Shown here: in pieces, positions 2,191-46,963 of the stretch
Position numbering within the stretch: position 1 is the first letter of the stretch
Layout of the letters: each line of letters begins with the position of its first letter
Assembly: GCA_964016885.1 (NCBI GenBank)
Contig: OZ024746.1
Coordinates: forward strand, 48,174,001 to 48,238,000
From: Eledone cirrhosa
Lineage: Eukaryota
Direction: 5' to 3'
DNA: 64,000 bases
Position numbers and translations under genes: made by a program
The notes under the pieces: generated by a model
What the model was told of the DNA's origin: nothing
The model's database searches: none
Seen by the model: only the letters and a program-made list of their open reading frames with translations

Positions 2191-2297
2191 GTAGTTAAAA
2201 GGTAAACAGAAATAACAACACACTCGGTACAGTATATGGAAGGTATATATTAGGTTAACGCTTGATATAACAGGAAGAGGGTTTTAACGTTTCGGAC
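2191..2297 (-). mobile_element. 5'-truncated retroelement end carrying the 3' half of a hammerhead motif
   Basis: Short unique segment between TA-rich tracts; minus strand begins tccGAAAcgtTAaaac. Confidence 0.4.
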
Positions 2298-2731
2298 ATA
2301 CATATACATATAAATATATATGAATAAAAAATGGCGAGCTGTGTTGTTTCAATTAAGTATAATAAATGAAGAATTAGAAATAGAAGTTAGCAATATCCGT
2401 CATCAGTTGTCTACTAGCCATCATAGGTATTTCTTCACATTACAGACAATATACGTCCATCTAGGGTGATACAATAACTAAAGTAAGTTATTGGGATAAA
2501 AAGAGTTGGGTGGAGAAAGAGAGACATGTAAACAAACACGAATGGTGAGGCAACGTAAAGAGAGGAAAAAATGAAAAAAATCAAGTCTATAATTCATTTC
2601 GAACATAAGCATGGGCGAATTTTGACGAGAAGGTAAAGACACATCTTAGACGTGTGGATGTGAGCGAGGAAAAGGATCTTGTACTGTGTGAGACAATGGA
2701 GGAAGTGAGAGAGAGGGTGAGTAGCAGAATG

Positions 2732-2735
<4 letters not shown>

Positions 2736-2790
<55 letters not shown>
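2736..2790. repeat. (TA)n microsatellite
   Basis: Direct inspection. Confidence 0.95.
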
Positions 2791-2792
<2 letters not shown>

Positions 2793-2793
<1 letters not shown>

Positions 2794-3078
2794 CATCATC
2801 ATCATCATCACCGTTTTACGTCCGTTCTTCCATGCTAGCATGGGTTAGACGTGTTGTCCTGTTGTGGGCAGTGTCTGGTCGGCTGACCATGCATTGCTCA
2901 TACAGGAACTGATTTGGCTTGATTTCTACAGCTGGATGCCCTTCCTAACACCAACCTCATTTACAGTGAGTGGTGGGTGCTTTTTCGTGGCGCCTACACG
3001 TCCACTTTACAGTGTGGGCTGGGTGCTTTTTTGCCGTGGCACCTCCACGACCACCTTGCGGTGGGGGAGGGGGCATAT
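2793..3078 (-). mobile_element. Short 5'-truncated RTE LINE copy (3' UTR with (GAT)n tail)
   Basis: Highly similar to 5617-5900, the 3' end of the RT-bearing RTE fragment; starts with (CAT)n on plus. Confidence 0.8.
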
Positions 3079-3084
3079 TATATA

Positions 3085-41977: not shown

Positions 41978-42012
41978 ATATATATATAGATAAGAAATAC
42001 ATTAAAGTTTCA

Positions 42013-42238
42013 TTTACATGTATTTAGTTCTCTATTGTGTATCGATCTGTTATGCGCATTTCACAGAGGATTGGCTTAGGGTCACTCATAGAAGTTAAAT
42101 ATATTCTTTGTTGGATTGCCAGTCTAGAGACCAGATTGATAATGGAGTTGGATCCATAGTTTCTATAGGTGACCCTGAACCAATCTTCTGCGAAACACGC
42201 GTAACAGGTTGATACACAAAGAACTGAATACATGTAAA
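42013..42238. mobile_element. Older foldback element: ~83-bp arms (42013-42097 / 42157-42238)
   Basis: Arms align as inverted repeats at roughly 80% identity; GAAA-hexamer-TA in each. Confidence 0.8.
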
Positions 42239-45200
42239 CAATACTGTTTTTTTTAATGTATACACTCTGCCTGTGCATCAAGTGCTCATCTTGGTACCAC
42301 CAGCAGTAATTCAGTGAATCACATACAATATATATATATATATATATGGAATTTACCACTAACACCTACACAAGTTTAGTTTGTCTCCTATGAAGACGCA
42401 TCTCTTAGGAGGTTTATCAGATGTACAAATGGTAGGAGCCCCAGTTATATGTGTATGTGTGTAACACACACACACACATATATATAGGCACACACATGCA
42501 CATACGTAAATAGTGTGGTTTGTGACTTGAAACTGTTCAAAACCACTTTCTTAATGCAGTTGTTAGCCCAGTAGCGGATGTATATATGTTTAGAGATGTA
42601 GGATAACAGTGCTCAAACATGTGTGTGTGTGTTTGTATATATGTATTAGAACTAGAAGCGCTATAATAAACAAACTTTCAGAATCAATAAAATGTGTTAC
42701 AAATATTAGTTGATTAGAGTGAAAGTTAGGTGACATGAGATCAAACTTGATATTTTCACAAGATGTAAATGGACATTTAGATAAGAATTTTTTCTGTTTC
42801 ATTATCATTTCATTCTATAAGCTTTTCTTTACAAAATAGAGTTTCATCAATAACTATACAATCTGTCTCTACCAATAAAATGAAACATTACAAAGAAAAT
42901 GGTAACAGAATTTTCTGAAAATGCTATTTTAAATAAAATTAGTAGTGCTTAAAAGGTTAAAAATGTAAGATAAGTTAATGCTTTCCAACATGTTAAAGAA
43001 GGCACACACCAATGTAAACAACCAGTTGAAAATATATCTATAGATTTTTCTCCTCTAAATACAATTCAATCTTTAGTCAATTTGAATTTTGGAGTCATCT
43101 CCTTTGTCGTTCTTTGCATGAGTTATCAATATTAATCATTTTTGTTCATTATAAATATAATTTAATTGACTAAATATTTGGGAAATGAGTGGCTCTCATG
43201 ACATCAAGTATGTTACCCCCCCCCCCCCCCCCCCCACTACCCGCTTAGCATACATTGATTGTTTCTAATTATCTCTGTATGTCATAAGAGGCGACTAAAA
43301 GGTTTCCAACCTGGTCGGGTATCTGGCTCTAAAATTACTATAATAAATTTCATGTAATCCAAAGATAAACTGTATAAGGCATGGATCATCATTATCATTT
43401 TATATTCATTTTTCCATGCAATGGACGGGTCATCATGGTCTGAGAATCATGTGTTGCTCATATGTTTCATTTTTAACATGGCTTCTACAGCTGGATGCCC
43501 TTCCTAACAGTGACCATTTTAGAGAGGGTAGTGGGGGGCATCTTATCGTGGAACCAGTACTGCCACTTTATAGAATGTACTGGATGCATTTTATCAGGAT
43601 ATATCAGTAGAAGAAATGTCTCCAGTTTGGAGTGACACTCACGAACTGGAGAAATATACAAACTGAAGAATTATAGTAACTGGAATATTAAAGCATTAAA
43701 TCAAATGATTATGCTTGAATTTAAAAATAATTAGCTGTTGTAACATTTCTGTACTAGAAATAACTAATAATGGTATTTGGAATACAGAAATCAATTAACT
43801 GTTCACAAAACAAACAGGGGTGATGATATATGTCTAATAAATCCATGTAGACAGACGAGCAATTGGATACCATCAAATTATTGTATAAAACTAATGTAAT
43901 TAGAACATACTAATGAACAACAAAATAAGACAAAAGTACAAAAACAAAAAAAAATTAATGATAGCATACAAATATAGATAGATTGCTTTTATTTTTAATA
44001 CAGTAGCCCCACTGCAGTACTGACTTGGTCTATGTAGACCTGTCCAACCCTTTCTAGTAGGGAAGGCAGATATTAAAGCAAAAATGATGAACAGTATGCA
44101 ATATTTCATAAATCATAATGAAAGAAACATAGAGTAAATATAACTATGATCTGTAGTATTTATTAAAGCAACTAGTCACATTGAAGTTGAAAGACAAAGA
44201 ATACATGCAGGAATAAATACAATACAATCTAATTGTCAAAATAATGAAGGAGACTTTACATCATAGATGTAGGAAAGGTTTTGGCATCTGGAGTAAATTA
44301 CAAGTGGATATGTAACTCGAGAGATGTAATTGTGGTGAGAAAAATAATCAGTCTTGAAGAGTACAAATTTATAGATTTGTAAATTATATTTAATAACTGT
44401 TTTAGATTTTAGGCTTAACTTTTTTTGCAAAACTCTTGTGTTGTATAGTTGCATGAAATATAATATAAATGTTAGCCTCAGATTGTTTTCTGAATGAAAC
44501 TGAGAAGATATTTTTTGGCTCCTATATCTTGAAGTTATTTTTATTTCTTAATTAGATTCCTAATACTACACAGAAAAATAGATTGAGAGAAAGATATTGT
44601 GGCTTCATCATCGTTAAGATAGTAATTAATGATAAAATCATGAAAAATAAATATTTACAAGCCCTCTTACCAAAGAAATATCACAACTGGTAGACCAAAT
44701 AAGAGAAAATGAAATTTAAACCCTCAAAGATTTAATCCTTTAATTATTCCACTAAACATGAAGCATGTGTTTTTATCTAAAAATATTGTACAAATTTAGA
44801 AAGAATGGTGACTGATCTCTTGAAAAAGTAAAAAAAGAAACCCACATCTTCAACATTACAATCTCTCTAGTCATAAAGTATAGGATACTTAAAACCATAT
44901 TACCTACTAATGGTTCATCTCAACATCTCATCTCACAGCAACCCTGCATTCTTCATATAGGCATTTAAATAAAACCCTAGGATTTCTTTTCAGAACTAGA
45001 AAATACTTCAGTCTAGTAAAACTGGTAACTCATTACAAAGCATTTTAAAATTGAGTGCTGCTCATATTTCTGGGATGGTGCACTCATTATACATAGTCAC
45101 ACACTAGATCAAGAAAAAAAACAAAAAAACATTCATATAAGAGGCAAGCTTTCACTCACCAAGACTTTATGTTTGGCTCACAGCTAAGGCTTGTATTACT

Positions 45201-45622
45201 TTTATACCTTCATCCACAAACTACATTTCTTCCTACTTTTATAATTATAAGCTGCATTGCCACTACATTTTAGTTAGAGCTGAAGAATTGCGAACAAGAA
45301 TACTAGGCAATTAGGCAACATCCCTAGTCACTCAACCTGGTAAAAATAACAATCAAATTCTCCTGAAAGAAGATTTTACTATAAAAAAGAGAAAAAGAAG
45401 CATACTGGATAATGTATTCTTGGATATATTTATGTAAAAATAAGATGGCATTGTGATGGTAAGAATGCTTTGAGTTCACCTGGAACTAGACATTAACAAT
45501 AGATGTTATAAGTTGATTTCTATGTCACCTAATCATAGGGGGGAATTATACCTGAAAGATGCAGTACAGGGAGGAATAAAAGAAATAATCTAATCTCTTT
45601 TCCAGACCATTTCTGTTTCAGT

Positions 45623-45818
45623 AGGGCGGTGAATTGGCAGTATTTGTAGAGGGTTGGACGCCATGCTTTCTAGCATAGTTACGTCCCTTTACGGTCTGAG
45701 TTCAAATCCCGTCGAGGTTAACTTTGCCTTTCATCCTTACGGGGTTGATAAAATAAAGCACCAGTAATGTACTGGGTAATTGCTGGCCTTGTGCCAAAAG
45801 TAGAAACAATTATATTAT
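45623..45818 (+). mobile_element. SINE S1 full-length copy
   Basis: A-box-like head, B-box, core, tail. Confidence 0.88.
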
Positions 45819-46835
45819 AGAGTTGGGTGGCAAAATCGGTAAAGCATCAGACAGAATACAGTGTTTTTATGTCACATCACTTTACGGTCTGAGATTAAGA
45901 TAAAATTCTAGCTAAGTACACCGAACCATTGATCTTTCTACTTTCTGAGGATGGTAAAGTAAGCATCAATTGATAAAATAAGTACACTTTAGACAATGTA
46001 CTTAACTATACCCTAGAAGGTAGTGCCCTAGCCAAACCACAACACAATGATTAAAACTAGTAAAAGAATTAACGAATACAGAATCACTTGTTAGTTTGCA
46101 GTTAGTTTCATGGTTCATGTCTGTCAATTTTCTTCTGTTCTTATCCTCCTTATGTTAGCAAGGCCAGAAAGTTTCAGTACTTTGTTCTCAGTGCTACATG
46201 ACAATAACTTAGAACTTCATTAGGAAAGAACCACCTGATACTTTATCTTTTCGGTCATTGTGACTTCTTAATGCCTAATATTCCTATTACATCCTGGTGT
46301 GAACATAAATCTGTTGTATTTACATTAAGTTAAACTGTAGTCATTTAACATGACAGAAGCATTATCTCTGAAATATCAGAATGGTATAATTAATTTCAGC
46401 TTTTGTATTAAACCAAAATAAATAAATAATAAAATGCCAGACTGGTTCGTTTCTGAGATAAAGTTACTATCTTAATTAATAAAGGATTAATTAATCTCAA
46501 TAAAGAATGGCAGTATGAAACAGACTATCAACAAAAGTACTTGGAAAATACGAGTTGGAGTTTTATTTTATTTTCAAAGGTAGATGAAACAACACAGGAG
46601 AAAATTAAAGAAGCAGAGAGATTATGATTTGGGATTAGCTAATAATGCCTCTGATTACTATGGCACTACATACACACTGCCTTTAAAAACTGTGATGCAA
46701 TTTATCTTTCTATGCTATGCATGCAGGGTCTAATAACTCCTGAGCGAGTCACGGGGCACTGTATTGACATACATAAAAATATGTTAGACCATTACTCATC
46801 AGAGTACTCGATACTTGTGGTAGTAGAGTGTGGTA

Positions 46836-46963
46836 ATATGAAAGAGTCGGGACCTTGATGGTTGAGCTCTTGCAATTTCAACAGCTAGTATTGAACCAGA
46901 TAGTTCGGAACTAGCTGTTGAAATGGCAAGAGCTCAGCCATTGGGTTTCCGACTCTTTCATAT
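46836..46963. mobile_element. 128-nt hairpin/foldback element abutting (TA)n
   Basis: ATATGAAAGAGTCGG...CAACAGCTAGT / ACTAGCTGTTG...CCGACTCTTTCATAT. Confidence 0.85.

What the first reader, a model, noticed from the sequence alone, without database searches (positions are those of the whole stretch)
2191..46963. Recurring system: hammerhead-ribozyme-bearing, (TA)n-associated, snap-back retroelements of several distinct families
Seen: five complete CUGAnGA/GAAA/UH motifs with pairable stems (4749, 5095, 15177, 16706, 18281) and GAAA-palindrome-UA half motifs (2283, 41740, 41910, 42051, 42192). They occur in at least five dissimilar sequence families. Most are ORF-less, touch (TA)n tracts, and are inverted self-duplications with the ribozyme sense pointing outward. 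One carries a Penelope-type GIY-YIG ORF. Known: Penelope-like elements carry minimal type I hammerheads with short palindromic stem III in their pLTRs and can have inverted 5' pLTRs; metazoan retrozymes are non-autonomous hammerhead elements producing small circular RNAs. Inference: this genome hosts a diverse retrozyme/mini-PLE population mobilised by PLE proteins, preferring TA microsatellites, whose integration often makes hairpins.
Basis: partly seen in the sequence, partly recalled or inferred. Interest (0 to 1): 0.9.

Follow-up and report, generated by a model that had tools for sequence, protein, structure and literature searches.

The report
Penelope transposon ends with oversized hammerheads
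The motifs are the ends of eight families of Penelope-type jumping genes inserted in TA repeats, and four families carry predicted self-cutting RNAs with an unusually long arm that a standard RNA-family search missed, which likely hides thousands of such RNAs in this genome.

Summary
In detail: 8 hammerhead-like folds in the window against 0.65 in shuffles. The interpretation needs correcting. Hammerheads, inverted pLTRs, tails and (TA)n targeting are published traits.

Not found in my searches: (1) several 'half motifs' are whole hammerheads with 54-96-nt stem II domains, against 10-30 nt in 43 of 44 hits from Hydra-clade relatives; four families share a covarying stem-II internal loop. (2) Family G has 48,063 exact 3'-half matches and 6,309 complete ones, mostly U3-A8, and is usually truncated and inverted inside stem II. 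(3) 57 of 60 inverted pairs have exactly one tailed arm, which fits two cDNAs primed on one RNA better than simple snap-back. Cleavage and expression are untested. New variant of a known kind.

The parts
2184..2297 (-). Family D (Neptune-like PLE) 3' end, cut inside stem II; only the GAAA half (GAAA at 2293) remains; single arm ending in (TA)n 2160-2183
4599..4829 (-). Family C (Neptune-like PLE) tailed arm with complete minimal hammerhead 4752-4790 (12-nt stem II, 6-nt palindromic stem III, 5-bp stem I)
4835..4916 (+). Family C inverted short-ended arm, hammerhead region deleted
5060..5237 (-). Family B (Hydra-like PLE) short-ended arm, hammerhead 5101-5166 with 31-nt stem II
5242..5316 (+). 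Family B inverted arm made of tail sequence only, not overlapping the other arm
15142..15272 (-). Older family B copy, short-ended arm, hammerhead 15182-15246
15431..15529 (+). Older family B inverted arm, almost all tail
15554..15866 (-).
16623..17780 (-). Family A (Nematis-like PLE) long short-ended arm: C-terminal linker and GIY-YIG (17205-17780), 3' UTR, hammerhead 16744-16778
17776..18491 (+). Family A inverted arm with hammerhead 18296-18330 and tail 18452-18491
41602..41838 (-). Family E (Hydra-like PLE) tailed arm; whole hammerhead 41735-41825 with 8-nt core (one extra nucleotide) and 61-nt stem II
41847..41980 (+). Family E inverted short-ended arm starting at the base of stem II (no core)
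41981..42097 (-). Family F inverted short-ended arm, cut inside stem II
42100..42330 (+). Family F tailed arm; decayed core 42124-42130, 61-nt stem II, GAAA at 42192; autonomy unresolved
46774..46895 (-). Family G (Hydra-like PLE) tailed arm, cut inside stem II; decayed copy
46897..46963 (+). Family G inverted short-ended arm

Best explanation
These are the 3' ends (pseudo-LTRs) of Penelope-like retrotransposons sitting in (TA)n, most of them 5'-truncated and joined head to head to an inverted second arm, and each family carries a predicted type I hammerhead, in E, F, G and H with a stem II enlarged to 54-96 nt. Shown: family structure, linkage to RT/GIY-YIG frames for six families, the one-tail rule, same-subfamily arms, the truncation hot spot in G. 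Inferred mechanism: the RT-endonuclease, likely a dimer, nicks both strands of a TA tract and primes two cDNAs on one RNA, one at each of the two RT start sites that define the short end and the tail; both stall, in G inside stem II, and their ends are joined, giving an inverted pair with one tail. H is likely moved in trans as a non-autonomous tandem unit. The hammerheads likely cut slowly or partly, as dimers where stem III is a short palindrome and as a monomer in G.
For: Linkage: B ORF ends about 1.5 kb upstream in 4 loci, G 0.76-1.3 kb, A about 0.43 kb; E contiguous with an RT/EN frame in L229, L498, L501; C upstream holds RT and GIY-YIG motifs in L220; D has a GIY-YIG motif upstream in 5 of 25 longer copies. 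One tail: 57 of 60 inverted pairs; 17 of 17 close partners (15 distinct insertions) among 30 G copies not anchored on the tail; all 7 inverted insertions in the window. Arms not nested in 9 of 19 pairs; the B copy at 5060-5316 has arms that do not overlap, as expected when two primers meet on one RNA. Arms of one hairpin share subfamily letters in 41 of 46 against 21% between hairpins. G 5' ends: 50 of 70 at -30 to -1 from GAAA. (TA)3 at the G 3' end in 27 of 30 against 5-12% background. PMC11167929 shows both strands nicked and extended, two RT start sites that bound the tail, and a predicted dimer. Hammerhead fold: RNAalifold returns the three-way junction for 21 G copies, position 7 varies while its neighbours do not; across E, E2, F, F2, 15 of 23 pairs change on both sides, covariation score reached by 0 of 500 shuffles.
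Against: No cleavage or expression data. 14 of 46 G hairpins have a centre of 2 nt or less and both arms end at nearly the same place, which snap-back also predicts. PMC11167929 saw no difference in start site between strands, studied a Poseidon-clade element, and found the ribozyme dispensable in vitro. Single-sequence folds are unremarkable for 7 of 8 motifs (z -0.2 to +0.7; only G -2.3). Within G there is no double-sided change (0 of 15 pairs), within H 2 of 37, and the H consensus fold pairs the core with stem III. The cross-family test rests on 11 rows from 4 families and a structure that I set by eye; the basal helix pairs in only 61% of cells because E is shifted by one. E's core and a G subfamily with C3.A8 depart from consensus and may be weak or dead. 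Most sets were found with tail-containing queries, so short-short pairs are under-sampled. One of the 9 non-nested pairs (L311) may be two separate insertions. D and H make no inversions although their stem III is palindromic.
Confidence: 0.6

Rival explanations
1. Same elements, but the inversion forms by self-priming: one nucleic acid strand folds back at a hairpin and is copied, and the endonuclease later trims the two arms in a staggered way, one at the short end and one at the tail.
For: Near-perfect palindromic centres in 14 of 46 G hairpins and same-subfamily arms in 41 of 46. PMC3846280 proposes self-priming for such palindromes; PMC8557442 ascribes the tail to EN-mediated resolution.
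Against: Needs an extra trimming step to give non-nested arms (9 of 19) and tail-only arms; the tail boundaries equal RT start sites in vitro (PMC11167929).
Confidence: 0.3
2. One reading: the listed ORF-less copies are non-autonomous retrozymes or mini-PLEs that travel as small circular RNAs.
For: Most copies are short and ORF-less at their locus; F has no frame linked so far; H is such an element.
Against: A, B, C, D, E, G show graded 5' truncation that runs into PLE frames; I saw no head-to-tail unit period in them.
Confidence: 0.06
3. The long-stem motifs are dead relics: stem II grew by insertion, the ribozymes no longer cut, and the conserved loop serves only protein binding.
For: Non-consensus cores in E and part of G; 28 of 49 upstream H units, counted by eye, extend past the cleavage site; ribozyme mutants do not block insertion in vitro (PMC11167929).
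Against: Core, GAAA, U16.1 and stems I and III stay in register across at least 18 families while stem sequences differ; U3-A8 is an active covariation (PMC3088659).
Confidence: 0.2
4. Hairpins are assembly artefacts or arose after insertion by recombination in TA tracts.
For: Palindromes trouble assemblers (own knowledge; PMC8557442 says so for PLEs).
Against: Arms differ in sequence and end at two fixed family-specific sites; D and H sit in the same tracts without hairpins.
Confidence: 0.03

Closest known systems
Hydra-clade Penelope-like elements (PMC8557442; includes Hydra-1_Obim from an octopus)
   Same: B and G have DKT, CxCX5C, CxxC and C-terminal CxH motifs, a C-terminal EN, (TA)n insertion and a hammerhead near the 3' end; stem III of 4-5 bp and mismatches at 10.1-11.1 are in the published table.
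   Different: Published Hydra hammerheads have a short stem II (4-7 bp plus a short loop) and C3-G8; here up to 61 nt, U3-A8 in G, 1.2-2.5 kb 3' UTRs, tens of thousands of hairpin copies. No family here has the published Hydra-1_oBim hammerhead sequence (compared by eye).
Minimal PLE hammerheads (PMC4209133)
   Same: A, C, D fit: short stem I, palindromic stem III, extra nucleotide after A9 in some; opposite-strand pairs 100-700 bp apart and U3-A8 were reported in Schistosoma.
   Different: That paper's 'larger' helix II is 7-8 bp; no 40-100-nt domains in the parts I read.
Metazoan non-LTR retrozymes (PMC7229834; bioRxiv 10.64898/2026.07.22.740005)
   Same: H is ORF-less, tandem, AT-rich, with whole hammerheads in consecutive units; unit length lies within the 51-972 bp range reported, except the ~1 kb subfamilies.
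   Different: H has a branched 96-nt stem II instead of a canonical loop-loop type I motif, PLE-style fixed 3' end in (TA)n, mostly 1-2 units; circles untested.
Poseidon PAc of Anolis (PMC11167929)
   Same: Two fixed 3' ends (short, tail), AT-rich target, hammerhead near the ORF start as in family A.
   Different: Other clade; the paper does not report the one-tail rule in inverted pairs in the parts I read.
PLE-X1_sMoe hammerhead and Naiad 'HHR_half_core' cases (PMC8557442 supplement)
   Same: A plant PLE hammerhead with a 53-nt stem II region is listed as deviating; eight Naiads, two from cephalopods, have core halves 35-50 nt apart.
   Different: Treated as exceptions or non-motifs; no conserved stem II module described.

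Membership tests
EN+ Penelope-like element | One ORF with RT and C-terminal GIY-YIG | tested here: met
   A: RVT_1 and GIY-YIG above cut-off. B and G: no Pfam hit but YRDD, linker and EN motifs, 403 full-length homologs. C, D, E in broken copies. F and H: no frame found.
EN+ Penelope-like element | pLTR with type I hammerhead in sense orientation | tested here: met
EN+ Penelope-like element | Optional tail and inverted 5'-truncated copy | tested here: met
   A, B, C, E, F, G; D and H have no inverted copies
Hydra clade (B, E, G) | DKT, CxCX5C linker, CxxC and CxH in EN, RWK-like motif | tested here: met
   B and G; RWR only in G, B's N-terminus is truncated; E by 33-54% tblastn identity to B and G
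Hydra clade (B, E, G) | RT phylogeny with reference Hydra elements | not tested
   No reference sequences were held as files; clade labels for A (Nematis-like) and C, D (Neptune-like) are by-eye motif comparisons with the supplement
Hydra clade (B, E, G) | Length under about 3 kb | tested here: not met
   ORF plus 1.2-2.5 kb 3' UTR; described as general, not diagnostic
Non-LTR retrozyme (listed loci A-E, G) | No protein-coding frame in the family | tested here: not met
Non-LTR retrozyme (H) | [quoted passage not shown] | tested here: met
   Longest frame 61 aa in the 745-nt unit; upstream unit in 19 of 40 loci, whole dimers in L435, L438, L442, L462, L464, L469
Non-LTR retrozyme (H) | Expressed as circular RNA | not testable with these tools
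   No RNA data were examined for H
Type I hammerhead (E, F, G, H) | Core, GAAA and NUH around three stems | tested here: met
   E and part of G depart in the core
Type I hammerhead (E, F, G, H) | Covariation within one family | tested here: inconclusive
   0 of 15 pairs in G, 2 of 37 in H; positive only across families
Type I hammerhead (E, F, G, H) | Self-cleavage after H17 | not testable with these tools
   Needs in vitro assay

The most novel reading that the evidence does not exclude
A lineage-wide radiation of active hammerheads whose stem II has become a 40-107-nt module (a conserved internal loop or a branched junction) that binds the PLE protein and sets where reverse transcription stops; with the one-tail rule it shows that PLE inverted ends come from one protein dimer priming two cDNAs on one RNA. 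It would also mean that hammerheads are undercounted in animal genomes and that 'half-core' Naiads may have whole ribozymes.
Probability: 0.3. Interest if true: 0.78.

Novelty: new variant of a known kind. Interest (0 to 1): 0.52.

Why it matters
How PLEs make their inverted ends and tails, and what their hammerheads do, are stated open questions (PMC8557442, PMC11167929). This genome offers tens of thousands of young insertions with a near-strict one-tail rule and a truncation hot spot inside the ribozyme, which give sharp predictions for the existing in vitro assay. The long-stem ribozymes escaped Rfam here and exceed the 7-17-nt spacer used in the published core search, so counts of animal hammerheads may be too low. 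The basic system is known, which caps the score.

Tried and rejected
Rfam scan: no hammerhead match. Half motifs as a class: little or no excess over shuffles. Single-sequence MFE: uninformative except G. A pile-up of G 5' ends at the cleavage site: only 3 of 70 at +24, not support. H upstream units start at +8 to +43 from the cleavage site in 9 of 19, but none at 0, the stretch is AT-rich and can anneal to (TA)n, and 9 of 19 start upstream of the site: suggestive only. Autonomy of F: 9 longer copies showed shared sequence of a few hundred bases and no linked frame; unresolved. First tail count was confounded by TA runs and redone, 9 of 61 'inverted' calls were TA-run artefacts and were dropped, leaving 52. 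Earlier findings: none returned. Lunse et al. (PMC5785218) was not held; it may describe some of these variants. bioRxiv supplements were not seen; the supplement of PMC4209133 was not read. No tree, structure prediction or complex prediction was run.
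Full report
Setting. The window is G000:C6:48174001-48238000 of a 3.0-Gb animal assembly, 33% GC with many (TA)n tracts. It resembles cephalopod genomes, which is recalled and untested.

Observation. The five complete motifs are present, in three families and four insertions. A scanner that allows stem II up to 110 nt finds 8 folds of score 10 or more against 0.65 in 200 local dinucleotide shuffles; a strict one finds 2 against about 0.02. 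Rfam finds no hammerhead. GAAA-palindrome-UH alone is at or near chance, so each half motif was traced to its family.

Families. Searches of the own genome gave copies for each. B: copies 99% identical over 178 nt, joined to a 690-aa RT/EN frame. A: RT and GIY-YIG by Pfam. C: RT and GIY-YIG motifs upstream in L220, the EN part shared with L222. D: 3,447 exact whole hammerheads, a GIY-YIG motif upstream in 5 of 25 longer copies, no inverted partner in 30 of 30. E: 146 exact whole motifs, contiguous with an RT/EN frame ending 2.5 kb upstream in three loci. G: 48,063 exact matches to a 26-nt 3'-half pattern and 6,309 to the whole motif, reversed controls 0, frame 0.76-1.3 kb upstream. F: old (about 80% identity), no frame found. 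B and G carry the Hydra-clade motifs of PMC8557442; the Nematis-like and Neptune-like labels for A, C and D are by-eye comparisons, with no tree. The ORF-less copies of six families are therefore truncated autonomous elements.

A real retrozyme-type family. H (15554-15866) was missed. It has 1,172 exact whole motifs, an upstream unit in 19 of 40 loci with periods of 729-750 or 988-1,030 nt and one of 587, a longest frame of 61 aa in the 745-nt unit and no opposite-strand partner in 20 of 20.

The ribozymes. A, C and D are minimal hammerheads as in PMC4209133. E and F have 61-nt, G 54-56-nt and H 96-nt stem II regions. In 1.2 Mb of fetched loci, which were selected for these repeats, the scanner gave 186 hits against 0-2 in three shuffles, in 18 clusters with stem II of 13-103 nt; a later pass lists 19 groups, 9 of them at 42 nt or more. 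In 77 Hydra-like loci from metagenomes, 43 of 44 hits have 10-30 nt and the 44th lies inside an ORF at chance level; those contigs are short and close to my alignment. G has mostly U3-A8, 4-5-bp stem I and a 5-bp stem III, and RNAalifold returns the three-way junction, without double-sided changes. E, F and two relatives share an internal loop (GAGUC opposite YGAGC) between helices of different sequence: 43 distinct matches against 0 in three shuffles; 15 of 23 pairs change on both sides in 11 rows, and no shuffle of 500 reaches the covariation score (structure set by eye, rows related). H's stem II folds into two hairpins on an 8-bp helix (z -5.4), with 2 of 37 pairs doubly changed. U3-A8 is reported as active and an A6a insertion, which E resembles, as weak (PMC3088659). 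Activity is untested here.

Insertion anatomy. Each family has a short 3' end and a tail end, both meeting (TA)n: 27 of 30 for G against 5-12% background; D is looser, 11 of 15 scorable copies, 15 of 30 not scorable. Of 60 inverted pairs, 57 have one tail, 2 none and 1 two; tail-containing queries under-sample the tailless class but not the two-tailed one, and 15 of 15 distinct G hairpins from a set not anchored on the tail also have one. Among 19 pairs with arms differing by 50 nt or more, the longer arm is short-ended in 9, tailed in 8, both short in 2. In 70 tail-anchored G copies taken in genome order, 50 end 1-30 nt upstream of GAAA and 52 have an adjacent inverted arm after 9 TA artefacts were dropped. 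The arms of a hairpin share subfamily letters in 41 of 46 against 21% between hairpins, and 14 of 46 centres are 2 nt or less.

Mechanism. PMC11167929 shows nicking and extension of both strands and two RT start sites that bound the tail. One dimer engaging both sites on one RNA explains the one-tail rule, same-subfamily arms, non-nested arms and the tail-only arms at 5242-5316 and 15431-15529 (0.6). Self-priming with staggered trimming, after PMC3846280 and PMC8557442, explains the palindromic centres but needs an extra step (0.3). The identity as PLE ends is much firmer (about 0.93) than either mechanism.

What is known. Hammerheads in pLTRs, opposite-strand pairs, U3-A8, inverted 5' copies, a tail 'often at only one end', (TA)n targeting by Hydra elements and the PLE origin of animal retrozymes are all in print. 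Nine literature searches gave no description of 40-100-nt stem II modules in animal PLEs, of the shared loop, or of a count of tails in inverted pairs; the nearest are one plant case and the 'half-core' Naiads. Papers seen: PMC4209133 parts 1-3 of 4; PMC11167929 parts 1-2 of 4; PMC8557442 passages, section 11 and supplement passages with parts 2-3; bioRxiv 2026.07.22.740005 parts 1-2 of 5; passages of PMC6765202, PMC7229834, PMC3088659, PMC3846280, PMC6962438, PMC13725137; PMC5785218 nothing (not held), and it may overlap. Hammerhead numbering and the twin-priming analogy with L1 are recalled.

Verdict. Real, mostly explained by known PLE biology, with a new ribozyme variant and a testable integration rule: new variant of a known kind, interest 0.52.

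Noticed in passing
window 2298-2735 (-): Another repeat family ending in (TA)n next to D; it has a CUGAUGA followed by a short hairpin but no GAAA in register. It may be a PLE end with a degenerate or different ribozyme.
   Followed up: partly
window 3590-4190, 5949-6365, 6676-7050: Fragments of a non-LTR RT (RVT_1 at 6679-7050), RTE-like by recall, interrupted by TA-rich arrays; intact relatives in L042 and L317.
   Followed up: no
window 14053-14143 and 16265-16372: Two further perfect hairpins that hit microRNA models below threshold; not checked for PLE origin.
   Followed up: no
window 22593-23285: GC-richer GAT/GGT trinucleotide-like repeat with open frames on both strands (Gly/Asp-rich on +).
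   Followed up: no
L515, L521, L529, L530, about 190 nt upstream of the D hammerhead: Pyrimidine tract followed by CAG/G, resembling the 3' splice site of a PLE pLTR intron.
   Followed up: no
L145, L012, L033, L045, L003, L223: More hammerhead families with long stem II (41-107 nt), some U3-A8, some with 5-bp stem III; L145 has two copies 484 nt apart on one strand, a possible second retrozyme.
   Followed up: partly
L401, L402, L418, L419: A G subfamily with C3 facing A8, a broken core pair, yet common among whole copies.
   Followed up: no
PMC8557442 supplement, Naiad_Ovul and Naiad_Esco: Marked 'HHR_half_core'; they may be whole long-stem hammerheads of the kind seen here.
   Followed up: no
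window 15142-15866 and 41602-42330; L177, L194, L441: Different PLE families pile up in the same TA tract, end to end, so tracts grow into composite clusters.
   Followed up: partly
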